A DNA stretch of 64,000 nt, from the sequence record PX915676.1; one strand, given 5' to 3'. The notes under the pieces were generated by a model. It made no database searches, was not told where the DNA came from, and was given only the letters and a program-made list of their open reading frames with translations. Source of the DNA: a phage. Below are positions 5,768 through 37,380 of this stretch, piece after piece. The first letter of the stretch is position 1. Each line of letters opens with the position of its first letter. Made by a program: the position numbers and the translations under genes.

Positions 5768-5796
5768 ATTGACACCGAAAACAGCCTGATATATAG
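5768..5796 (+). promoter_or_regulatory. sigma70-type promoter (TTGACA-N17-TATAGT)
   Basis: Perfect -35 at 5768-5773, 17-nt spacer, TATAGT at 5791-5796; A/T-rich upstream. Confidence 0.65.
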
Positions 5797-5900
5797 TGAG
5801 CATAGTCAGCGATGACTTAAAAAATCCCGCTCTTTAAAAACTTATCATCTTGCCCTTTCGCATAGATTCACGCGAGATAAGGGAAAGGAATTAAAAGAAG

Positions 5901-6217: not shown

Positions 6218-6246
6218 TTGACAGCGAAAACAACATGATTCATAAT
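6218..6246 (+). promoter_or_regulatory. sigma70-type promoter (TTGACA-N17-CATAAT)
   Basis: -35 TTGACA 6218-6223, 17-nt spacer, CATAAT 6241-6246; shares TTGACAsCGAAAACA with promoter at 5768. Confidence 0.65.
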
Positions 6247-8069: not shown

Positions 8070-8092
8070 GTAAGACAATTTGAATAAACATA

Positions 8093-8126
8093 AGGCGCTA
8101 CCTTAACGGGTAGTGCCTTTTCTTTT
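8093..8126 (+). terminator. intrinsic terminator
   Basis: GGCGCTACC-TTAAC-GGGTAGTGCC hairpin (one G-U pair) plus TTTTCTTTT. Confidence 0.8.
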
Positions 8127-9501: not shown

Positions 9502-9527
9502 GCCCCGGCTACGGCTGGGGCTTTTTT
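9502..9527 (+). terminator. intrinsic terminator
   Basis: GCCCCGGC-TACG-GCTGGGGC hairpin + TTTTTT. Confidence 0.85.
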
Positions 9528-10166: not shown

Positions 10167-10463
10167 ATGACTTTAGAAGTATATAAATTCCTTTTTGTAA
10201 GCTGTTTAACTATCAGCGTTCTAGGATTTATTGTTCTCAGAAACAAAGCAGCAAGCTGGGAGAGAATGTATAAATCCCTAGTCCGAGTGGATGAGATGTA
10301 TAATGAGAAAGTTAAAGTAACACTCAACGATCTTATTATGCAAGTTGAAGACAGAAACAAACGTCTTCAGAACCTCAATCATGAAGTGTTGCGCCTTGCT
10401 CGTGCTAATGAAGACTTGCGAGTGGCTATTGCTAAACAGCAGGAGATTAACAATGAAGCATGA
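10167..10463 (+). CDS. membrane-anchored coiled-coil protein
   Basis: Track ORF 98 aa; N-terminal TM (FLFVSCLTISVLGFIVL) then charged helical region. Confidence 0.55.
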   Translation: MTLEVYKFLFVSCLTISVLGFIVLRNKAASWERMYKSLVRVDEMYNEKVKVTLNDLIMQVEDRNKRLQNLNHEVLRLARANEDLRVAIAKQQEINNEA

Positions 10464-10710
10464 TATTAATACAGCCCCTGTAGTCAAGCAACTGAAAGAC
10501 CTGAAGGTGGGGAGTGTTTTTGAAACTGTTCCACCTAAAAATAAAATATATCTTACAGTAAAGCTAGATTCCTCAACCGTTTATTCAGCTAGTTGGAAGC
10601 CTGACGAAAGAGTAGTAGTAGATCTCACTTCGGATAGAATAACAATGTTGAGAAAAGATACTGTTGTTCAGGTAGTTGATAATGCTCGACTTACCAATAA
10701 GGTGGATTAA
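10453..10710 (+). CDS. small paralog family protein (G[DSE]VF motif family), member 1
   Basis: ATG 10453 with AGGAG SD; LKVGSVF...KIYLTV motif shared with 9 other small ORFs. Confidence 0.6.
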   Translation: MKHDINTAPVVKQLKDLKVGSVFETVPPKNKIYLTVKLDSSTVYSASWKPDERVVVDLTSDRITMLRKDTVVQVVDNARLTNKVD

Positions 10711-10712
10711 AG

Positions 10713-10949
10713 ATGAAAGTTAATATTAAATCCGATCGTACAATGCTTCGCTTAAATAACATGAAGCCGGGGGTTCTGTTTGAGCGTAAAGAATCCCTTT
10801 ACATTAGAACTGACACATTATACGCAGATAACTATGTCAACTGTGTTGATGTGGTAACTGGAAAGCTCATGCCTTTTAAACGGGATGAAGTTTGCCAAGT
10901 TCGCAGTGATCTCCACATAACCAATATAGAGACTAAAGATGAAGATTAA
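10713..10949 (+). CDS. small paralog family protein, member 2
   Basis: Track ORF; MKPGVLF...LYIRTD motif. Confidence 0.6.
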   Translation: MKVNIKSDRTMLRLNNMKPGVLFERKESLYIRTDTLYADNYVNCVDVVTGKLMPFKRDEVCQVRSDLHITNIETKDED

Positions 10950-11196
10950 TCTTGAAGTAAATGAACCGTCTTTGTGTGTTGGTGATCTCAAACTTGGAGA
11001 TGTATTCCAAATCAGGGAAACACGAGCAGATTTCTACATGGTTGTTCAGCTATTTACCCCACAGATTGAAGAGACCAAGCCTTCTGATGGTGGTTGTGTC
11101 GTCCTTAGTCTAACAAATAAGCAAGTCCTTAAGCTTAGCTCGAAAAGCAAGGTTGTTCTTCTTCATGATGTTGTTATTACCAACAAGGGTAAGTGA
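10939..11196 (+). CDS. small paralog family protein, member 3
   Basis: Track ORF; LKLGDVF...FYMVVQ motif. Confidence 0.6.
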   Translation: MKINLEVNEPSLCVGDLKLGDVFQIRETRADFYMVVQLFTPQIEETKPSDGGCVVLSLTNKQVLKLSSKSKVVLLHDVVITNKGK

Positions 11197-11415
11197 ATGG
11201 AAATTAAAGTAGTTGATTATCCTAAATATGCAAATGCAGAAGACGTTAAAAGTGGTGATGTTTTCTCTTACGATAGACGTTTCTGGCTGATGTTGGAAGA
11301 TAAAACTCCTGATGGTTTGTGTAAGGCCGCCGATCTGAACAGTGGTTCTGTTGAAGTCTTCGGTTTATCAACCACTGTTATGCCACGTCCTGATCTGTGT
11401 TTATCCCAAAAGTAA
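11197..11415 (+). CDS. small paralog family protein, member 4
   Basis: Track ORF; VKSGDVF...FWLMLE motif. Confidence 0.6.
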   Translation: MEIKVVDYPKYANAEDVKSGDVFSYDRRFWLMLEDKTPDGLCKAADLNSGSVEVFGLSTTVMPRPDLCLSQK

Positions 11416-11424
11416 CATCGACTT

Positions 11425-11529
11425 ATAGCCCTTGTGTTTATCAGAGGGCTATGTGAGGGTGTTCCTCATTAACTTATTAATTCAGGCATATGCCACACCG
11501 CTAGGGAGAGCTTGCTCGAACATCCGGTG
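11425..11529 (+). promoter_or_regulatory. conserved intergenic element, copy A (hairpin ATAGCCC/GGGCTAT + core CTAGGGAGAG-hairpin-CTCGAACATCCG)
   Basis: Near-identical core and compensatory stem changes relative to copy B at 16791-16904. Confidence 0.5.
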
Positions 11530-11773
11530 CTAGACTAAAACCTGTTAATTTTCGAAAGACTTTCTGATATGTAGGGGTACGTATTAGTTTGGGATTCAGG
11601 AGACTTCCTAGGGGTAGGGAGTCTTCACCAGTTGGAATAAGAGATAGCTCTAGAACCTGAACTCTTAGGCAGAGAAGGTCGGCAATGAGTACGCGGTCAG
11701 GATTAGTCTACTGACTAGGGCTATCCCTTATATCAACTGGCAATAATGCTTCCACTAACAAAGAGAGATAGGT

Positions 11774-11914
11774 ATGAAAGTATCAACCAAACGTATGAAC
11801 CGCCCTGAACGTATGGATGCAGTAGCTAATGGTGCTCTGAAACTGGAAGGCTTTTGGATTCATGCAATGTCAGCCATCCGTAACAAGCAAGGTGGTTGGA
11901 CGTATAACAGTTAA
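11774..11914 (+). CDS. small ORF (46 aa)
   Basis: ATG with GAGAGATAGG SD-like sequence; MKVSTKRMNRPERMDAVANGALKLEGFWIHAMSAIRNKQGGWTYNS; followed by terminator. Confidence 0.35.
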   Translation: MKVSTKRMNRPERMDAVANGALKLEGFWIHAMSAIRNKQGGWTYNS

Positions 11915-11924
11915 TAAATAAAAA

Positions 11925-11953
11925 GGCTGCCTTCGGGTGGCCTTTGTTGTTTT
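11925..11953 (+). terminator. intrinsic terminator
   Basis: GGCTGCC-TTCG-GGTGGCC hairpin + TTTGTTGTTTT. Confidence 0.7.
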
Positions 11954-11996
11954 AATTAAGGGACAACTCTTACTTAAACTAACAAGAGGTGCTTAT

Positions 11997-12350
11997 ATGA
12001 GGCGCATGGTTAAAGATTGGGTAACTAAATCAGGTCTTCGTGCTGTGATTATGCACATGAACGACTCCCATTTTTGTGGATATGTAGAGCTACCAGACAG
12101 CTTAAAACATAAAAACTTCACCGGATATAACGGAAAGGAAGAGGTTTGTTATGTAAATGTTCATGGTGGTGTCACATGGCAAGACACCCTTGAAGAGATG
12201 AGTGGTTTAAATACAATCGGATTTGATTGTGCCCATGCAGGTGATAAGACACGGTTCAACCCTAACGGGGTTACAAGAACAGAAGCGTTCTGCATCAACG
12301 AATGCGAACAAATGGCTGAACAACTGAGAGATCTCGAATCAAATGTCTAA
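11997..12350 (+). CDS. hypothetical protein
   Basis: Track ORF trimmed to ATG 11997 (MRRMVKDW...) with AGAGGTG SD. Confidence 0.6.
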   Translation: MRRMVKDWVTKSGLRAVIMHMNDSHFCGYVELPDSLKHKNFTGYNGKEEVCYVNVHGGVTWQDTLEEMSGLNTIGFDCAHAGDKTRFNPNGVTRTEAFCINECEQMAEQLRDLESNV

Positions 12351-12519
12351 GCAAACAATCAAGAATACACAAGCTGGTTACTCTTATGTTAACTCTCCTT
12401 GCTGCGGTGCTCGTATTAATCTGGTTAAGGAAGAGGTTCGTATCGTTCAGCGTGGCGCTACTGTTGTTCGTTCATGCTGTGTCTGTGGTAATGATATTTT
12501 CATTAAAGGTAAAGTATGA
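12343..12519 (+). CDS. small Cys-rich protein (58 aa)
   Basis: ATG overlapping upstream gene end; SPCCGAR...SCCVCGND pattern; below track cut-off. Confidence 0.4.
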   Translation: MSKQTIKNTQAGYSYVNSPCCGARINLVKEEVRIVQRGATVVRSCCVCGNDIFIKGKV

Positions 12520-12740
12520 TTATCGTTCGCTCTGAGCCTAAAGATAACACTTTTGGTAGTCTCCGTAATGGTGATGTGTTCTCCCTAGAGATAGATGGGG
12601 ATACAAAACCTCCTTTATATATGAAGGTTATGCACAGACATGCTATCTGTATAAACAACCCTGAAACAAGATTTACGTTTGACAGGGGTTGTCCTGTCAA
12701 ATTTTATCAAGCTACCCTAAACGTCAGGAGAGTAGGATGA
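12516..12740 (+). CDS. small paralog family protein, member 5
   Basis: Track ORF; LRNGDVF...LYMKVM motif; ATGA overlap with upstream stop. Confidence 0.6.
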   Translation: MIIVRSEPKDNTFGSLRNGDVFSLEIDGDTKPPLYMKVMHRHAICINNPETRFTFDRGCPVKFYQATLNVRRVG

Positions 12741-12988
12741 AAAACTTCCAAGCTGCACCGATAACTAAAGTGATCGAAGTTGACGATGTAATGATGACTG
12801 TTCCTCTGAACACTCGTTACATTGCAATTGACAAGATGGGTTATGTATGGGCTTGGAAGATTAAGCCTAGCTATAACGCACTGTTTGATGAGTTTGTTTG
12901 TACTGGTACGTATAGTCCTACATTCTTAGGCTTATTTGGAGAGTTTGAAGGTCAGTATAAAATCATAACTCTCCCTGCTTGTGCTTGA
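12737..12988 (+). CDS. hypothetical protein
   Basis: Track ORF trimmed to ATG 12737 with AGGAG SD. Confidence 0.55.
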   Translation: MKNFQAAPITKVIEVDDVMMTVPLNTRYIAIDKMGYVWAWKIKPSYNALFDEFVCTGTYSPTFLGLFGEFEGQYKIITLPACA

Positions 12989-12995
12989 GGTTATT

Positions 12996-13160
12996 ATGTT
13001 CAAGTGGTTTAAATATCTCTTCCATCTCCATGAATGGGAAACTGTAAAAGAGATTCGTTTAAATGTGTATGATGAGTTCGGTAAACTAGAAGACACAGGG
13101 ACTCGTTATATACTTCGATGTAAAACATGTGGTCATATCACCAAACGAGATATGATCTAA
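12996..13160 (+). CDS. small zinc-ribbon-like protein (54 aa)
   Basis: ATG with GAGG SD; ...RCKTCGH... ; below track cut-off. Confidence 0.4.
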   Translation: MFKWFKYLFHLHEWETVKEIRLNVYDEFGKLEDTGTRYILRCKTCGHITKRDMI

Positions 13161-13168
13161 ATAATTCT

Positions 13169-13244
13169 GCGCTCTTAGCTCAATGGATAGAGCAGTAGCC
13201 TTCTAAGCTATTGGTTACAGGTTCGAGTCCTGTAGGGCGCACCA
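13169..13244 (+). tRNA. tRNA-Arg (anticodon TCT)
   Basis: Hand-folded cloverleaf: acceptor GCGCTCT/AGGGCGC, D-stem GCTC/GAGC, anticodon stem GTAGC/GCTAT with loop CTTCTAA, T-arm ACAGG-TTCGAGT-CCTGT, discriminator A and encoded CCA. Confidence 0.85.
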
Positions 13245-13249
13245 CATTT

Positions 13250-13365
13250 AGGGCTAGTATGGGTGCGGCACCAGAGTTAGTGTATCCCTGTTGAGGCAAG
13301 TGCTTTTATAACAGTGGGAATTGCTTTCTTAGTGAGCTTCTGGTTCGATTCCAGATAGTCCACCA
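13250..13365 (+). other. tRNA-like remnant or atypical tRNA (canonical T-arm and acceptor-like helix, body does not fold)
   Basis: TCTGG-TTCGATT-CCAGA T-arm at 13339-13355; 6-bp helix GGGCTA (13251-56)/TAGTCC (13356-61) then CCA; about 80 nt between cannot be folded into D and anticodon arms by eye. Confidence 0.25.
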
Positions 13366-13384
13366 AATCAAATAGGAGGTAGTT

Positions 13385-13666
13385 ATGAGTTGGGGTGGTG
13401 TAATATCCTTAATCTGTATCTTCCTTGTCTGCATAGCCCTTACAGGCTGCGTACAGAGCCGTCCTGATGGATGGTGTGCAGTAGCAGTGGAAGGTGTTTG
13501 TGTTTCTCGCTGGCATAAAGGTGAGAAGGTTCCTTCTGGTGAAATTGATATGCGTTACAGTGGTATCTCATGTCTGAATGGTGCAGCAGTAGATGAGGAG
13601 ACTAAAACCTTATCCGATGCGCAGTGGTGTGGTGGCTCTACAGTTACCACTGGTAAGGAGTGGTAA
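13385..13666 (+). CDS. lipoprotein (signal peptide with lipobox LTGC)
   Basis: Track ORF; AGGAGG SD; MSWGGVISLICIFLVCIALTGC... Confidence 0.65.
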   Translation: MSWGGVISLICIFLVCIALTGCVQSRPDGWCAVAVEGVCVSRWHKGEKVPSGEIDMRYSGISCLNGAAVDEETKTLSDAQWCGGSTVTTGKEW

Positions 13667-13667
13667 T

Positions 13668-13829
13668 GTGACTATTGAAGAACTCATTAGAACTCTTGAA
13701 AACTTATCTGTTACTTGTGGTCCAGATGCTATCGTCTACATCGAAGAACCTTCAGGGAATGAATACCCTGTGAAAGAGGTTCTTGAGTACTCAGTAGGAG
13801 ATCTTTCATCAGTAACCCTAAGACATTGA
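13668..13829 (+). CDS. hypothetical protein
   Basis: Track ORF trimmed to GTG 13668 with AAGGAG SD 8 nt upstream. Confidence 0.45.
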   Translation: MTIEELIRTLENLSVTCGPDAIVYIEEPSGNEYPVKEVLEYSVGDLSSVTLRH

Positions 13830-13836
13830 GGTGTAT

Positions 13837-14085
13837 ATGACAGCTCATTATTGGAATACAAAGAAGCTTCTTGAAGAGATGGCTGGGGGTAGTAGGTTCC
13901 AGTTAAACTCCATGCTTCGAATGGATGCCCGCTCTTTACGTTTCCAAGTAAAGATTGGTAACTTCAGTGATGGCCTTTATTATACCTTGAAAGAAAGGAT
14001 TAAGAAGACTCACTTCATCATATATGGACTCAAACCGAGAACATATGTTAACTACATGTATTGGGATACATGCTACGATAATTGA
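13837..14085 (+). CDS. hypothetical protein
   Basis: Track ORF trimmed to ATG 13837 with GAGGTG SD. Confidence 0.55.
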   Translation: MTAHYWNTKKLLEEMAGGSRFQLNSMLRMDARSLRFQVKIGNFSDGLYYTLKERIKKTHFIIYGLKPRTYVNYMYWDTCYDN

Positions 14086-14092
14086 GGTTATT

Positions 14093-14314
14093 ATGTTATT
14101 TGAAGCTAAGCAAACATTACCAGTAGTTCCTTTGTCTACACTTCTTAGTGGGAGTGCTTTTAGACATGATAATGGTTTTTGGATTAAGGGCGACCAAGAG
14201 GTTGGAGGGTATATTACCTGCATCAACATCTGCAACGGCGTTGTTGACGGATTTCGTCCAGCCGCTGAAGTCACCCCTCAATCCAACGCAAAGGTTGTAG
14301 GTTTAGTTTACTAA
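14093..14314 (+). CDS. small paralog family protein (divergent member, LSGSAF...FWIKGD)
   Basis: Track ORF trimmed to ATG 14093; initiation region TTGAGGTTATTATGTT identical to that of ORF 12996. Confidence 0.5.
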   Translation: MLFEAKQTLPVVPLSTLLSGSAFRHDNGFWIKGDQEVGGYITCINICNGVVDGFRPAAEVTPQSNAKVVGLVY

Positions 14315-14365
14315 GGAGCCTGTATTAGTTGTTTTGGTGGCGGTGAAGTAGATGACGATGATGAC

Positions 14366-14497
14366 ATGGAATCCAACGGTACATGTCCTGATTGTGGATG
14401 TGAGACATGGGATGGGGTGTCTGTATACCCTGCCTGTAGTTACTCACCAGTGATCTGTAAAACATGTGGAGATCAACCTTGTGATCAGTCCTGTTAG
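14366..14497 (+). CDS. small Cys-rich protein (43 aa from ATG; 57 aa if initiated at in-frame ATT 14324)
   Basis: CPDCGCETW...CSYSPVICKTCGDQPCDQSC; AAGGAG at 14313-14318 sits 5 nt before in-frame ATT rather than before the ATG. Confidence 0.3.
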   Translation: MESNGTCPDCGCETWDGVSVYPACSYSPVICKTCGDQPCDQSC

Positions 14498-14714
14498 TAT
14501 CTTGATTGTCTACTTGACAGGTATGGTGATAGTTTCAGCTCTGATAAAATTCCTTGACGTAAAAGGTAGTGTGGAGTTCAGAGGGTGGAACAACGAACCA
14601 AACCTATCAAAGATAGCAATTATAGTTTTTCTATGGCCTATCGTTGCTGTGGTTTTTATATCCCTTGTCTTGTGGGCTGCCCTGTGGGATTTTATACTCC
14701 CTAACAAGAACTAA
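14466..14714 (+). CDS. hypothetical membrane protein (two predicted TM segments)
   Basis: Track ORF; start uncertain (GTG 14466 or ATG 14523). Confidence 0.45.
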   Translation: MEINLVISPVSILIVYLTGMVIVSALIKFLDVKGSVEFRGWNNEPNLSKIAIIVFLWPIVAVVFISLVLWAALWDFILPNKN

Positions 14715-15009
14715 GAACTTATCGTGAAGGATTCTTACGAGAGTCCTTTGAGATAGGACTTCAGATCTCCTATCAAACTAACATTCACGTAACTAGCCCA
14801 TAAGGGCGTTACCCTTTAATAACCCAGCCCACTAAGGGGGCGGGAGTTTAGTGCTGGATTGGCTTTACGCTTATTCCTACAAAGGCAACCGATTGTTAGA
14901 TCTTACATGCAATATTAATTAATAGGATAAGGGAGGATTCGTCCCCTCCCCCTATTTTATTGAATCTTTATCTAAGCAAGTCTTATATAAACGTTTAATT
15001 GGAGGATGT

Positions 15010-15321
15010 ATGAAAGCACGAAGAACTATATGGACTCCGATGCAGATTGAAAATCTTCGGAGACTAATCAAAGAGTACTCAGTTCAAGAAGTTGCTCAGA
15101 TTATGAATGTAACGGAGAATGCTGTTAACACAGCTTGCACTAAATTCGGAATATCAAGAGCTTCAATCCGAGTTAAATGGTCTGAAGAAGAAGACCAGTT
15201 CCTTATCCGTAACGCTGGGTTCATGTCTATTCAGAGAATGGCTGACATGCTCGGTAGAAGTTATGCTGCTGTACAGAACAGGGCATGTATGCACCTTAAT
15301 ATTAGCCTCAAACTTAAATAG
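15010..15321 (+). CDS. putative DNA-binding regulator with two tandem HTH-like repeats (GcrA/Myb-like pattern)
   Basis: Track ORF; GGAGG SD; WTPMQIENLRRL...VQEVAQIMNVTENAV and WSEEEDQFL...MSIQRMADMLGRSYAAVQNR repeats. Confidence 0.55.
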   Translation: MKARRTIWTPMQIENLRRLIKEYSVQEVAQIMNVTENAVNTACTKFGISRASIRVKWSEEEDQFLIRNAGFMSIQRMADMLGRSYAAVQNRACMHLNISLKLK

Positions 15322-15329
15322 GAATCAAT

Positions 15330-15578
15330 ATGAAAATCACATATAAGAAAGAGGAAGTAGAAGCAGTAGAGCTAAGCTCTCTAGCTAATGGTTCTGTGTT
15401 TAAATTCCCACACAATAAAGATCTTTATGTGAAAGGGGTTGTTACCTTAAGTCCTAACATCAAAATCCCAGATAACCGGATACCTACTCTCCGGCTAGGT
15501 GATGGGGTTGTTTCAGCCCCTCTTGGTCGTTGTCAGGTTATCCCTGTGTCAGCTGAACTTTTAGTGAGTGGTTGCTAA
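15330..15578 (+). CDS. small paralog family protein, member 6
   Basis: Track ORF; LANGSVF...LYVKGV motif. Confidence 0.6.
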   Translation: MKITYKKEEVEAVELSSLANGSVFKFPHNKDLYVKGVVTLSPNIKIPDNRIPTLRLGDGVVSAPLGRCQVIPVSAELLVSGC

Positions 15579-15823
15579 TGAAAATCATCCCAAAGAAAAA
15601 GGATAATACGGTACGATTGGAAACAATCATTCCCGGAAACCCCTTCGTGGTTCAGCACGGAAGTGCCTCTCCTCAGTATTATATGAGGGTTGAAAATGCT
15701 TCTTGTAACATCCGTATAGCCAGTGGCTGGGTTCCTGTAGTGAATCTATCCACAGGTGTACTATCTGTTAAAGGTCTTGATGATCAGGTAGAAATGATTC
15801 GTATGTCTGTGGTTCAGGAGTGA
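15578..15823 (+). CDS. small paralog family protein, member 7
   Basis: Track ORF trimmed to ATG 15578; IIPGNPF...YYMRVE motif. Confidence 0.55.
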   Translation: MKIIPKKKDNTVRLETIIPGNPFVVQHGSASPQYYMRVENASCNIRIASGWVPVVNLSTGVLSVKGLDDQVEMIRMSVVQE

Positions 15824-15825
15824 GA

Positions 15826-16071
15826 ATGAGCACGATACATATTAAGGTTCACAACAAAAAAGAAAAGAAACTCTTTGTTAAAGATCTGTCAACCGCTGAC
15901 ATCTTTACTTTAAAAGATGATGACAGTCAGGTCATTTATTTGATGATGCCTCTATCTGGTGGATATCGCAGAGCAGTTAATTTAGGTACAGGCGAACCTC
16001 GTCCTGTTTCTGACACTCTTGAAGTTGGCGAGAAGTTTGCCAAAGCAGAGATCATCTTAACTCCGATGTAA
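15826..16071 (+). CDS. small paralog family protein, member 8
   Basis: Track ORF trimmed to ATG 15826 with AGGAG SD; LSTADIF...IYLMMP motif. Confidence 0.55.
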   Translation: MSTIHIKVHNKKEKKLFVKDLSTADIFTLKDDDSQVIYLMMPLSGGYRRAVNLGTGEPRPVSDTLEVGEKFAKAEIILTPM

Positions 16072-16304
16072 GGGTAAGTAAGTGAAAACAAAAGCATATT
16101 CTTATGATGATATGATTAACCAGAAAGGCTTCGGTCAACGACAGCCTGACGGTTCGATTATCTGGTTTGTAAACGGACAGAAAAAGGTAGCTAAATAAGC
16201 CCTCTTCTCTCCTCCTTTTAGTACTATGACGCCTCTCTGTGGGCGGCCCAATTTGCGTAGGGAATTCCCTCTACGCAGCCATGACTTTTTAAGGAATTTC
16301 CCCT

Positions 16305-16538
16305 ATGTCTAAAGTAAGCGCAATCGATGCAATCCGTCAACCGTTCCAGTTCCAATCCAAATCAACCCAAACCTTCAGCGAACCTAAGCAAATTCGCTTG
16401 GGTGGCACGGAGAAAACTGTGTTTGATCTGGCTAAAAACAAGAGCGTTACCGTAGTTGATGGCGGTACTCTGGTTAACGTTTCACACCGCATTCGCACTG
16501 GCAAAACTGCCAAAGATCGTGCTAAGAAAGGTGAGTAA
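16305..16538 (+). CDS. hypothetical protein
   Basis: Track ORF 77 aa. Confidence 0.55.
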   Translation: MSKVSAIDAIRQPFQFQSKSTQTFSEPKQIRLGGTEKTVFDLAKNKSVTVVDGGTLVNVSHRIRTGKTAKDRAKKGE

Positions 16539-16780
16539 TGAAAATAGGGCAACCAGCTAAGGATGTTCTAGCGAAGATTAGTGATATCTCTATTGGGGAA
16601 GTTTTCTCAGCAGAGCACTTTTCAAGTTACTACATGAAAATCCCTGACACTAAAGTAGAGGGTTGCATCATCCCTGCCAACGCAGTTAACCTGAACACAG
16701 GACATCTATCTGCATTCAAACCTGATTCACAGGTTACTGAGATCAAGGATGCTTATCTCGCATTTGGTGGGAATAAATAG
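16538..16780 (+). CDS. small paralog family protein, member 9
   Basis: Track ORF; ISIGEVF...YYMKIP motif. Confidence 0.6.
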   Translation: MKIGQPAKDVLAKISDISIGEVFSAEHFSSYYMKIPDTKVEGCIIPANAVNLNTGHLSAFKPDSQVTEIKDAYLAFGGNK

Positions 16781-31341: not shown

Positions 31342-31539
31342 ATGAAAAAGTGGATTGTTCGTGTACATGATAACACGACTGGAGAGTTAGTAGCTGTAGA
31401 TTTTGTTAAGACTCGAGAACACGCACGTAGGGTCAAAAATCAATACAAGTCTACTTTTAGACTTAACAAGGTTACAATTGGAAAAGCTATTGTGAATAGC
31501 GAAGGTGCTTTTATTGCCAACAGTAAGGTTTATTATTAA
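31342..31539 (+). CDS. small protein, tandem paralog 1 of 3 (C-terminal KVYY)
   Basis: Track ORF; shares W-rich N-terminus, TRE(H/E)AR motif and SKV.YY end with next two ORFs. Confidence 0.55.
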   Translation: MKKWIVRVHDNTTGELVAVDFVKTREHARRVKNQYKSTFRLNKVTIGKAIVNSEGAFIANSKVYY

Positions 31540-31748
31540 TGAGACCGATCACTATGAGACAATTTTGGTTAGCAAAGATTAAGTGGGTATCAGGTGGCAT
31601 GACTATGACTGCACTACCCACTCGCCAACAAGCTCGAGATTTTAAAAAGACTATGCTTACTGGTGACGTGGTCAATAGTATCAGTATCCATAAGGCCAAG
31701 GAATATTCCTCTGGTCGTGTTTATATCAGCGGAAAGGTACACTACTAA
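31539..31748 (+). CDS. small protein, tandem paralog 2 of 3
   Basis: Track ORF; same pattern (ends KVHY). Confidence 0.55.
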   Translation: MRPITMRQFWLAKIKWVSGGMTMTALPTRQQARDFKKTMLTGDVVNSISIHKAKEYSSGRVYISGKVHY

Positions 31749-31957
31749 TGAAAAAGATGTGGGCTATTAGAATTGTTTGGGAACGTGAGCAACACCTAGG
31801 CAAAGATAATATCAAACTGTTTGAAACTCGTGAAGAGGCTCGTATTGCTAAGAAGGAGTTGAAGACTCTGATCGGAACTATTAAAAGTGTTGACATTCAT
31901 CGCTGGTACGAAGACCCTAGCTCGGGTTCTTTTATGTCTAAAGTAATTTATTACTGA
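31748..31957 (+). CDS. small protein, tandem paralog 3 of 3
   Basis: Track ORF; same pattern (ends KVIYY). Confidence 0.55.
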   Translation: MKKMWAIRIVWEREQHLGKDNIKLFETREEARIAKKELKTLIGTIKSVDIHRWYEDPSSGSFMSKVIYY

Positions 31958-36839: not shown

Positions 36840-37094
36840 ATGTCTATTGTAAAAATCGTAAATATTTTTGATGTAACCAGAGATGGCAAGATTGTTAAGT
36901 GGACTTTCACTAACCACCACAACAAATCAAACAAGATCATCGAACGGATGATTGAGATTAACCCAAAAACAGCTCGCACTAATGTAATCCTTCGTGGTGC
37001 TGATGGTAAATTCATTTCTTATAAAAACAAAGACGTAGAAAAATCTTTCCGTGTTGCAGTAGAAAATCTCATCCCATTCCCTAAAGGAGTTTAA
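36840..37094 (+). CDS. hypothetical protein, paralog pair member 1
   Basis: Track ORF; C-terminal KTARTNVILRGADGKFISY...PFPKG shared with next ORF. Confidence 0.55.
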   Translation: MSIVKIVNIFDVTRDGKIVKWTFTNHHNKSNKIIERMIEINPKTARTNVILRGADGKFISYKNKDVEKSFRVAVENLIPFPKGV

Positions 37095-37095
37095 T

Positions 37096-37380
37096 ATGAA
37101 TAAGTTAGCTATGGTTCAAATTCGGGACACATACCCTAACCGCCCGGAGCAGAAACCGCGTACTTGGTCTTATCTGTTGGCTGAAAGTAAGACTATTGAC
37201 AAATACGCTGTAGGGGTTGATGCTATTCCAACTAGTATCACATTGCTCCCTCACAAAACAGCCAGAACCCATGTGATGTTACGTGATAGCAAAGGTAAGT
37301 TTATCTCTTATCGTGATTCACGAATCAATAATGAGATTAAATCTGCTATGGAATTTTTGATGCCATTCCCAAAAGGTTGA
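37096..37380 (+). CDS. hypothetical protein, paralog pair member 2
   Basis: Track ORF; KTARTHVMLRDSKGKFISY...PFPKG. Confidence 0.55.
   Translation: MNKLAMVQIRDTYPNRPEQKPRTWSYLLAESKTIDKYAVGVDAIPTSITLLPHKTARTHVMLRDSKGKFISYRDSRINNEIKSAMEFLMPFPKG

What the first reader, a model, noticed from the sequence alone, without database searches (positions are those of the whole stretch)
10453..16780. Ten-member family of ~75-85 aa paralogs in the early region
ORFs at 10453, 10713, 10939, 11197, 12516, 14093, 15330, 15578, 15826 and 16538 share an architecture: about 15-20 variable residues, then [LIV]xxG[DSEN][VIP]F, then an aromatic-hydrophobic block ([YFW][YWL][MLIV]) 8-12 residues later, otherwise divergent. 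Such an expansion of small, rapidly diverging paralogs is typical of host-takeover or anti-defence repertoires. I do not recognise the fold.
Basis: seen in the sequence. Interest (0 to 1): 0.6.

Follow-up and report, generated by a model that had tools for sequence, protein, structure and literature searches.

The report
Ten small beta-barrel paralogs, Kuravirus early region
A phiEco32/SU10-like E. coli phage carries ten diverged copies of one small gene in its early region; they belong to a large, unnamed phage protein family with an SH3-like barrel fold whose function nobody has tested.

Summary
All ten ORFs exist at the stated coordinates on the + strand, each with an ATG and a Shine-Dalgarno-like motif. 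They are homologous. A profile built only from 94 distant relatives scores them 25-58 bits, against 14.5 bits for the best of 10,000 shuffled decoys.

The window is a Kuravirus. By synteny with phiEco32 genes 95-115, the genes lie in the early operon. The family has no Pfam, NCBIfam or PDB relative and is split over at least 9 PHROGs of unknown function. It is nevertheless large: about 1,100 clusters at 50% identity, including N4 gp21 and four genes of phage 7-11.

Among 13 related phages the copy number is 4-11, in 21 orthogroups with patchy presence. dN/dS is 0.03-0.32, so the genes are maintained, not fast-evolving.

Most likely reading (inferred, not shown): non-enzymatic binding modules, each aimed at a different host macromolecule. 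Host takeover versus anti-defence remains open.

A conserved structured non-coding element at 11416-11773 was found in passing.

The parts
10453..10710 (+). Family member 1, 85 aa (pI 9.3). Its orthogroup is found in 4 of 13 related phages.
   Evidence: ATG with AGGAG upstream. Leave-one-out 26.6 bits. Distant-only profile 38.0 bits. Hits phrog_9955, 16423 and 7832. Orthogroup OG9.
10713..10949 (+). Family member 2, 78 aa. Core orthogroup, 10 of 13 phages. Overlaps the next gene by 11 nt.
   Evidence: Leave-one-out 27.6 bits. Distant-only profile 51.0 bits. phrog_16423 at 1.6e-48, plus 6570, 7832 and 7431. OG2, dN/dS 0.11.
10939..11196 (+). Family member 3, 85 aa. Core orthogroup, 10 of 13 phages. 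Abuts the next gene.
   Evidence: Leave-one-out 28.6 bits. Distant-only profile 43.6 bits. phrog_9955 at 2.4e-37. OG3, dN/dS 0.17.
11197..11415 (+). Family member 4, 72 aa (pI 4.7). Orthogroup in 9 of 13 phages. Last gene of the first block of four.
   Evidence: Leave-one-out 34.9 bits. Distant-only profile 46.3 bits. phrog_6570 at 5e-32. OG6, dN/dS 0.20.
12516..12740 (+). Family member 5, 74 aa. The most divergent member. Orthogroup in 6 of 13 phages.
   Evidence: Leave-one-out only 10.3 bits, with 4 of 10,000 decoys as high. Distant-only profile 25.1 bits with 0 decoys as high. Its phrog_10911 is hit by 15 other family members. AF2 pLDDT 86.8, all-beta with strands in the same order. OG8, dN/dS 0.06.
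14093..14314 (+). Family member 6, 73 aa. Core orthogroup with two subtypes that sit in tandem in some phages.
   Evidence: Leave-one-out 21.1 bits. Distant-only profile 48.4 bits. phrog_6570 at 2e-24. OG1 is duplicated in KBNP1711 and ev_rybdy8, the two copies 56-59% identical.
15330..15578 (+). Family member 7, 82 aa. Orthogroup in 7 of 13 phages, frameshifted in WFI101126. Overlaps the next gene by 1 nt.
   Evidence: Leave-one-out 23.3 bits. Distant-only profile 43.1 bits. phrog_7832 at 1.4e-19. OG7.
15578..15823 (+). Family member 8, 81 aa. Core orthogroup, 10 of 13 phages.
   Evidence: Leave-one-out 27.0 bits. Distant-only profile 53.7 bits. phrog_7431 at 1e-30. OG4, dN/dS 0.20.
15826..16071 (+). 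Family member 9, 81 aa. Has Ala in place of the near-invariant Gly. Core orthogroup, 10 of 13 phages.
   Evidence: Leave-one-out 14.0 bits, with 1 of 10,000 decoys as high. Distant-only profile 31.1 bits. Shares phrog_12612 with member 10 (3.6e-37 and 5.9e-30). OG5, dN/dS 0.19.
16538..16780 (+). Family member 10, 80 aa. The most consensus-like member. A rare orthogroup: 3 of 13 phages sampled, and at 88% identity or more in 18 phage database records.
   Evidence: Leave-one-out 38.0 bits. Distant-only profile 58.1 bits. AF2 pLDDT 86.5, five-stranded barrel. tblastn distribution. OG11.

Best explanation
The ten ORFs are real paralogous genes, maintained by selection, in the early operon of a Kuravirus (a phiEco32/SU10-like E. 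coli podophage). Each encodes a free-standing domain of 72-85 residues, predicted to fold as a five-stranded SH3/Tudor/KOW-like barrel.

Only the scaffold is conserved: the start Met, two Gly turns, and the hydrophobic residues F23, L52 and V66. The N-terminal arm and the two loops between strands 2-3 and 3-4 vary in sequence and length.

My reading is that these proteins are non-enzymatic binding modules. They would be made in the first minutes of infection, and each paralog would use its variable loops to bind a different host macromolecule, most probably a protein, and so block or redirect it. The phage lineage keeps a core set of five and swaps the rest.

**Shown:** homology, gene reality, predicted fold, position in the early block, breadth of the family, copy-number variation and purifying selection.

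**Inferred:** early expression (by synteny with phiEco32), the binding-module mechanism, and host targets.
For: **Homology and significance.**; PHROG cross-hits.

**Identity of the window and early position.**, with PMC4281155, PMC8948821 and PMC9965538. Consensus sigma-70-like promoters lie upstream at 5769-5797 and 6218-6246. The genes are co-oriented and packed tightly, with overlapping or abutting stop and start codons and SD motifs.

**No enzymatic signature.** The six positions conserved at 90% or more are M1, G20, F23, L52, G55 and V66. No polar residue is invariant. Gaps and high entropy are concentrated at positions 24-30 and 36-47.

**Charge.** pI spans 4.7-9.3 within the window, and the median is 5.2 in distant members. 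This argues against a generic nucleic-acid binder.

**Real, selected genes.** dN/dS is 0.03-0.32 in 15 orthogroups.

**Repertoire behaviour.** Thirteen related phages carry 4-11 copies in 21 orthogroups. Five orthogroups are core and the rest are patchy. There is a tandem pair of OG1 subtypes in two phages and one frameshifted copy.

**Breadth.** About 1,125 clusters at 50% identity, nearly all single-domain proteins of 67-90 aa. Members include N4 gp21 at 54.5 bits and four genes of 7-11. Three distant members examined sit as single copies inside one-directional arrays of small unknown ORFs on phage-like contigs.

**Not virion proteins.** None was detected in the SU10 particle preparation proteome.
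Against: - No member has any experimental function, so the mechanism rests on anatomy and analogy.
- Several structural analogs (L2, EF-P/eIF5A, PWWP, KOW) bind nucleic acids.
- One bacterial relative fuses five very basic repeats of the domain to a SprT-like protease. That hints at DNA binding in at least one branch.
- Semi-conserved Y/W32, K/R34, D21 and N51 could form a shared ligand site rather than a pure scaffold. I could not map them onto coordinates.
- Five orthogroups are universal in the genus, which fits a housekeeping takeover role better than strain-specific counter-defence.
- Expression timing was not measured for this phage.
Confidence: 0.5

Rival explanations
1. They are small nucleic-acid-binding proteins, analogous to LSm, KOW, PWWP or cold-shock proteins. 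They would tune phage or host mRNA stability, translation or transcription elongation, and the paralogs would recognise different RNAs or DNA structures.
For: - The top structural analogs include ribosomal L2, eIF5A/EF-P domain I, Spt5 KOW and an ssDNA-binding PWWP domain.
- A semi-conserved aromatic plus basic pair (Y/W32, K/R34) lies on alternate positions of strand 3.
- A bacterial SprT-like protease carries five strongly basic repeats of the domain.
- T4 has an analogous set of early LSm-like barrel proteins, for which an RNA role is proposed (PMC12152347).
- A conserved structured non-coding element lies directly after the first gene block.
Against: - Most family members are acidic: median pI is 5.2, and 67% are below pI 6. 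Four of the ten window proteins (pI 4.7, 5.6, 6.0, 6.6) carry a net negative charge at pH 7.
- No invariant basic residue exists.
- There is no sequence match to the Sm, KOW, CSD or EF-P families. EFP_N matches 2 of 140 members at a best E of 0.014.
- The T4 proteins GoF, MotB.1 and Frd.2 score about 0 bits against the family profile.
Confidence: 0.2
2. They are specifically an anti-defence repertoire. Each paralog would neutralise a different bacterial immune system, and this would explain the broad resistance of Gordonclarkvirinae to restriction and other defences.
For: - The genes are small and in the early block, and half of the orthogroups are patchily distributed between close relatives.
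- A tandem pair of subtypes and a decayed copy show gene turnover.
Against: - No similarity to any described anti-defence family in Pfam, including a non-significant Tad3 match at E 0.075 in 1 of 140 members.
- All matching PHROGs are 'unknown function'.
- Purifying selection, not diversifying selection, acts within orthogroups.
- Five orthogroups are fixed in all ten Kuravirus/Nieuwekanaalvirus phages sampled.
- The BASEL authors themselves favour a DNA modification to explain RM resistance.
Confidence: 0.25
3. The shared motif is a chance or compositional resemblance among unrelated short ORFs, some of which are not genes.
For: - Pairwise identities are only 15-34%.
- Single pairwise phmmer E-values are modest.
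- Two members are weak in the leave-one-out test.
Against: - All ten score 25-58 bits against a profile of distant relatives, with no decoy of 10,000 reaching them.
- The motif sits at a fixed position and is nearly absent elsewhere in the window.
- Every member has conserved orthologs under purifying selection.
- The two members modelled, including the weakest, give confident predicted structures with the same order of strands.
Confidence: 0.01

Closest known systems
Uncharacterised PHROG families 6570, 7832, 7431, 8365, 16423, 12612, 9955, 10911 and 34455, including Escherichia phage N4 gp21 and Salmonella phage 7-11 gp110, gp112, gp131 and gp133
   Same: They are the same protein family by sequence. 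The window proteins match their own PHROG at 1e-13 to 1e-48 and cross-hit the others. N4 gp21 scores 54.5 bits, and four 7-11 genes score 21-49 bits. Foldseek against BFVD also recovers them.
   Different: PHROGs splits the family into at least nine separate groups, all labelled 'unknown function', so the paralogy is not visible in annotation. N4 has one copy within the first 22 kb of its genome (the only part scanned) and 7-11 has four. This window has ten.
T4 early LSm-like fold family GoF / MotB.1 / Frd.2 (Kim et al. 2025, PMC12152347)
   Same: Several small early proteins of a lytic coliphage share a small beta-barrel fold despite very dissimilar sequences, and the function of the wild-type proteins is unknown.
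   Different: There is no sequence relationship: all three score about 0 bits against the family profile. The T4 proteins are longer (119-141 aa). T4 has three of them against ten here. The present models lack a long helix (only one 3-residue helical turn). From my own knowledge, not tested here, canonical Sm/LSm folds begin with an N-terminal helix. No clear member of the present family was found in the 149 kb of T4 scanned; ndd.1 gives a marginal 14.9 bits.
SH3-like small beta-barrels used as interaction modules: eIF5A/EF-P domain I, ribosomal L2, Tudor, FeoA, HspQ, VapX, and the CarD and UvrD C-terminal RNA-polymerase-binding domains
   Different: Sequence identity is 2-19%. There are no Pfam matches. 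The best Foldseek PDB match has E 0.08 and TM 0.46. This is a resemblance of fold class, not evidence of common descent or shared ligand.
phiEco32 gp79, the one characterised small early regulator of this phage group. It inhibits sigma-70 transcription and activates the phage sigma factor.
   Same: An 82-residue product of a gene in the same leftward-transcribed early/middle region of the phiEco32 genome, and it acts by binding host RNA polymerase (PMC8948821).
   Different: It is not a family member. There is no hit with the family profile, and its sequence lacks the family's GDVF and Y-[YW]-M-K motifs.

Membership tests
The unnamed phage small-barrel family itself (PHROGs 6570, 7832, 7431 and others; N4 gp21-like) | A full-length match of a 70-85 aa protein to the family profile, with the G-[DE]-V-F turn, the Y-[YW]-[MIL]-K strand, V-N-L-x-x-G and a late V-x-P | tested here: met
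   All ten score 25-58 bits against a profile of 94 distant members, with 0 of 10,000 decoys as high. Alignments span profile positions 1-74.
SH3-like small beta-barrel fold class | A five-stranded, strongly bent antiparallel sheet closing into a barrel | tested here: met
T4 GoF/MotB.1/Frd.2 LSm-like family | Detectable sequence or profile similarity | tested here: not met
   GoF, MotB.1 and Frd.2 score 0.8, -0.1 and -0.5 bits against the family profile. The models show no long helix; whether that matters for LSm membership rests on my own knowledge of the Sm fold and was not tested.
KOW / EF-P / eIF5A N-terminal domain | A match to the Pfam KOW or EFP_N models | tested here: not met
   There is no Pfam hit for the ten at E up to 1. 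EFP_N matches 2 of 140 family members at a best E of 0.014, below the curated threshold.
Tudor / CarD-RID type RNA-polymerase-binding or methyl-lysine-binding barrels | An aromatic cage or an RNAP beta-lobe contact surface | not testable with these tools
Described anti-defence protein families | Sequence similarity to a characterised inhibitor of a defence system | tested here: not met
   Pfam (which holds the Tad3 and PinA models) gives only non-significant single hits. PHROGs and NCBIfam give no functional label. No dedicated anti-defence library was available, so absence from such lists is not proven.
phiEco32 gp79-type RNA polymerase regulators | Homology to gp79 | tested here: not met
   The family profile does not hit gp79 in a six-frame scan of phiEco32 38.0-77.5 kb.
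Early (host-RNAP-transcribed) gene class of phiEco32-like phages | Position in the rightward block downstream of the sigma-70 early promoters, with early transcript accumulation | tested here: inconclusive
   The position is met. The genes are syntenic with phiEco32 genes 95-115 and SU10 genes 96-114, which lie within the early class. Consensus-like promoters lie at 5769-5797 and 6218-6246. Transcript timing was not measured for this phage.

The most novel reading that the evidence does not exclude
The family would be a phage-wide library of inhibitors built as a fixed scaffold with variable loops. An SH3-like barrel whose two hypervariable loops have been retargeted many times against different host proteins, including immune systems. 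Kuraviruses would stack 8-11 different specificities in their first-expressed operon. This would be a new, very large class of phage counter-host proteins (about 1,100 clusters at 50% identity). It could also explain why Gordonclarkvirinae shrug off most tested defences.
Probability: 0.3. Interest if true: 0.75.

Novelty: new variant of a known kind. Interest (0 to 1): 0.5.

Why it matters
**Size of the blind spot.** The ten genes total about 2.4 kb, roughly 3% of a genome of about 77 kb. None has a name, a Pfam model or a solved relative. Current annotation hides their kinship by scattering them over at least nine PHROGs.

**What recognising one family buys.** It gives a single profile that finds about 1,100 sequence clusters, including a gene of the model phage N4. 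Many 'hypothetical proteins' then become one tractable question.

**A natural experiment.** Kuraviruses are being developed for therapy and are unusually resistant to restriction and other defences. Their mix of a fixed core of five paralogs and a swappable set offers a ready-made test of which host functions are targeted.

**If they are binding modules.** With diversified loops, they would also be a compact natural scaffold for engineering binders.

Tried and rejected
- **Pfam, NCBIfam and PDB sequence searches** of the ten proteins and of 140 family members gave nothing significant.
- **Foldseek against the PDB** gave no hit at E 0.001 or better. The afdb50 library was not available.
- **phiEco32 gp79 as a family member** was rejected.
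- **T4 GoF/MotB.1/Frd.2 as relatives** was rejected by profile scoring. The T4 scan gave only a marginal ndd.1 hit.
- **The search for related loci with the family alignment** failed because no stretch of 7-10 columns is conserved enough.
- **tblastn with the profile consensus** found one phage record and no plasmid. This was probably limited by the low-complexity filter and the short query, so it says little about distribution.
- **The second and third word-indexed homolog searches** returned mostly kuravirus proteins again. Breadth therefore rests on the exhaustive representative search.
- **P0186, a eukaryotic RCC1-repeat protein** among the representatives, is a repeat-summing false positive.
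- **Literature searches** found no description of this paralog family in the SU10, 7-11, Kuravirus-expansion or BASEL papers.
- **'Rapid divergence'** was tested by dN/dS and not found.

Full report
**What the window is.** The region 10000-17000 matches 143 phage records. The best are Escherichia phages TH06, ev_rybdy8, ES17, Paul, SU10 and KBNP1711, at 88-94% identity over 73-85% of the query. These are Gordonclarkvirinae (Kuravirus and relatives), prolate C3 podophages typified by phiEco32.

The finding lies in the block syntenic with SU10 genes 96-114 and phiEco32 genes 95-115. The literature on SU10, phiEco32/7-11 and the Kuravirus group places this block in the early, host-RNA-polymerase-transcribed class. 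It calls the block's products hypothetical proteins likely to act in host takeover (PMC4281155; PMC8948821; PMC9965538). Two consensus-like sigma-70 promoters lie upstream: TTGACA-17-TATAGT at 5769-5797 and TTGACA-17-CATAAT at 6218-6246.

**Checking the observation.** All ten ORFs are present on the + strand, start with ATG and have an SD-like motif upstream. They form blocks: 10453/10713/10939/11197, then 12516, then 14093, then 15330/15578/15826, then 16538. Within the blocks, stop and start codons overlap, abut or are 2 nt apart.

The strict motif occurs only twice in the other 50,980 residues of six-frame ORFs.

Pairwise identities are low, at 15-34%, and single pairwise E-values are modest, so I used profiles.
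- Leave-one-out profiles score eight members at 21-38 bits, against 14.1 bits or less for 10,000 shuffled decoys. The two weak members are p15826 (14.0 bits) and p12516 (10.3 bits).
- A profile built only from 94 distant relatives, each below 35% identity to any window member, scores all ten at 25-58 bits. The best decoy scores 14.5. That set was itself recruited with a profile of the ten, so the test is not fully independent. It does show that the two weak members belong with the rest.
- PHROG profiles, built by others, link the members through cross-hits. p12516's own phrog_10911 is hit by 15 other family members.

No further member exists in the window.

**What the family is.** There is no Pfam, NCBIfam or PDB sequence match for the ten or for 140 relatives. 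PHROGs holds the family as at least nine separate groups, all of unknown function.

An exhaustive profile search of 1.84 billion cluster representatives found 1,125 clusters at E of 0.001 or better.
- Almost all are single-domain proteins of 67-90 aa matched end to end.
- A few are two-domain tandem fusions.
- One is a bacterial SprT-like metalloprotease followed by five very basic repeats of the domain.
- One obvious false positive is an RCC1-repeat protein.

Named members include N4 gp21 at 54.5 bits and four genes of Salmonella phage 7-11. By structure and sequence, there are also uncharacterised proteins of Vibrio, Erwinia, Proteus, Morganella, Dickeya, Serratia, Klebsiella and Pseudomonas phages. 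Three distant members whose contigs could be retrieved sit as single copies in one-directional arrays of small unknown ORFs on phage-like contigs.

**Fold.** AlphaFold2 with the family alignment gives confident all-beta models for the most typical member (p16538, pLDDT 86.5) and the most divergent one (p12516, pLDDT 86.8). Both have the same order of strands.

In the 140-sequence alignment, the positions conserved at 90% or more are M1, G20, F23, L52, G55 and V66. These are the start codon, turns and core, and no polar residue is invariant. Entropy and indels are concentrated at positions 4-13, 24-30 and 36-47, which fall between the predicted strands. Semi-conserved D21, Y/W32, K/R34 and N51 might form a shared surface. 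I could not map them because model coordinates are not exposed.

**Comparative genomics.** I scanned the early regions of 13 Gordonclarkvirinae with the family profile.
- Copy number is 4-11: the window has 10, ev_rybdy8 has 11, and SU7 and 101114UKE3 have 4.
- At 50% identity the 106 genes fall into 21 orthogroups.
- Five orthogroups (the 14093, 10713, 10939, 15578 and 15826 types) are in all ten Kuravirus/Nieuwekanaalvirus phages.
- The others are patchy. The 16538 type is in 3 of 13 phages, and at 88% identity or more in only 18 phage database records.
- The three Suseptimavirus phages carry entirely different orthogroups.
- OG1 has two subtypes, 56-59% identical. They lie in tandem in KBNP1711 and ev_rybdy8, while other phages keep one or the other.
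- WFI101126 has a frameshifted copy.

Nei-Gojobori dN/dS within 15 orthogroups is 0.03-0.32. The repertoire changes by gain, loss and replacement of old, diverged types.

**How it most likely works.** These points are shown:
- a conserved barrel scaffold and variable loops;
- no catalytic signature;
- pI ranging from 4.7 to 9.3 in the window, and mostly acidic elsewhere;
- no signal for membrane insertion in the sequences;
- none detected in the SU10 particle proteome;
- location in the first-transcribed block.

From this I infer that the proteins are non-enzymatic binding modules, each directed at a different host macromolecule, most likely proteins. I put about 0.5 on this general mechanism.

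Whether the targets are housekeeping machinery (takeover) or immune systems (anti-defence) is open. The five fixed orthogroups favour takeover, and the patchy half favours anti-defence. [quoted passage not shown] Its authors favour a DNA modification as the explanation.

The main rival is nucleic-acid binding. It is supported by the nature of several structural analogs and by the basic SprT-fused repeats. It is weakened by the acidic character of most members and the lack of conserved basic residues.

**Comparison with the known.**
- The closest described analog in kind is the T4 early LSm-like family GoF/MotB.1/Frd.2 (PMC12152347). Those proteins score about 0 bits against this family. No clear member was found in the 149 kb of T4 scanned, and ndd.1 gives a marginal 14.9 bits.
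- phiEco32 gp79, the characterised small regulator of this phage group, is not a member.
- I found no paper describing this paralog family. That search covers open-access literature only.

**Verdict.** This is a genuine, statistically solid ten-member paralog family. It belongs to a large, unnamed, phage-wide family of SH3-like barrel proteins of unknown function. The fold is ordinary and the phenomenon, small multigene families in phage early regions, is known. What is new is the size of the family, the recognition that it is one family, and the degree of expansion here. Interest is moderate at 0.5, and it would rise if distinct host targets were demonstrated.

**Seen in passing.** The 358-nt gap at 11416-11773, immediately after the first block of four genes, has no ORF and no Rfam match.
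- It is better conserved across genera than the flanking proteins, at 85% mean column identity in 12 phages.
- It folds with z = -3.6.
- It supports a consensus structure of 85 pairs in which 99.4% of cells pair.
- Thirteen pairs show compensatory changes, against 0-2 in slid controls.

It looks like an undescribed structured RNA or regulatory element of the early operon.

Noticed in passing
window 11416-11773 (+): A 358-nt non-coding gap directly after the first block of four family genes. It has no ORF and no Rfam hit, and its MFE z-score is -3.57. Across 12 Gordonclarkvirinae it is 85% identical per column, better conserved than the neighbouring proteins. The consensus structure has 85 pairs; 99.4% of cells pair, and 13 pairs show compensatory changes against 0-2 in slid controls. 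One helix carries a ~55-nt insertion in some phages. It is a candidate novel structured RNA or regulatory element.
   Followed up: partly
window 13169-13244 (+): A tRNA-Arg (anticodon TCT) sits among the early genes, as in related kuraviruses.
   Followed up: yes
window 5769-5797, 6218-6246, 8092-8119, 9502-9521, 11922-11945 (+): Two near-consensus sigma-70 promoter-like sites (11 of 12 matches) lie upstream of the early block. Three strong terminator-like hairpins lie inside it, including GCCCCGGC...GCTGGGGC plus a T run at 9502-9521. This suggests attenuation or antitermination within the early operon.
   Followed up: no
window 36840-37094 and 37096-37380 (+); 31539-31748 and 31748-31957 (+): Two further tandem pairs of small paralogous ORFs lie elsewhere in the window, with phmmer E-values of 1.2e-11 and 3.9e-4. 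They are unrelated to the family studied here.
   Followed up: no
window 10167-10463 (+): The 98-aa ORF just upstream of the first family member is labelled 'DNA helicase' in several related records (SU10 gp115, phiEco32 gp116). It is far too short to be a helicase, so the label looks like annotation carry-over.
   Followed up: no
window 12343-12519, 12981-13160, 14366-14497 (+): Three small Cys-rich ORFs (58, 59 and 43 aa) with paired CxxC motifs are interspersed with the family genes. They are possible zinc-ribbon proteins.
   Followed up: no
L021 47102-47317 (T4 ndd.1, record 166101-166316): T4 ndd.1 (71 aa) gives a marginal match to the family profile: 14.9 bits, E 6e-4 among 532 ORFs, over profile positions 12-49 only. 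It may be a very distant relative or chance.
   Followed up: no
L014 7239-7485 (phage WFI101126): The ortholog of window gene 15330 is split into two overlapping ORFs of 56 and 37 aa, apparently by a frameshift. This indicates either ongoing decay of one paralog or a sequencing error.
   Followed up: no
P0094 (478 aa, metagenomic): A bacterial-type SprT-like zinc metalloprotease domain is followed by five tandem, strongly basic repeats of the same small barrel domain. It is the only informative domain fusion seen for the family.
   Followed up: partly
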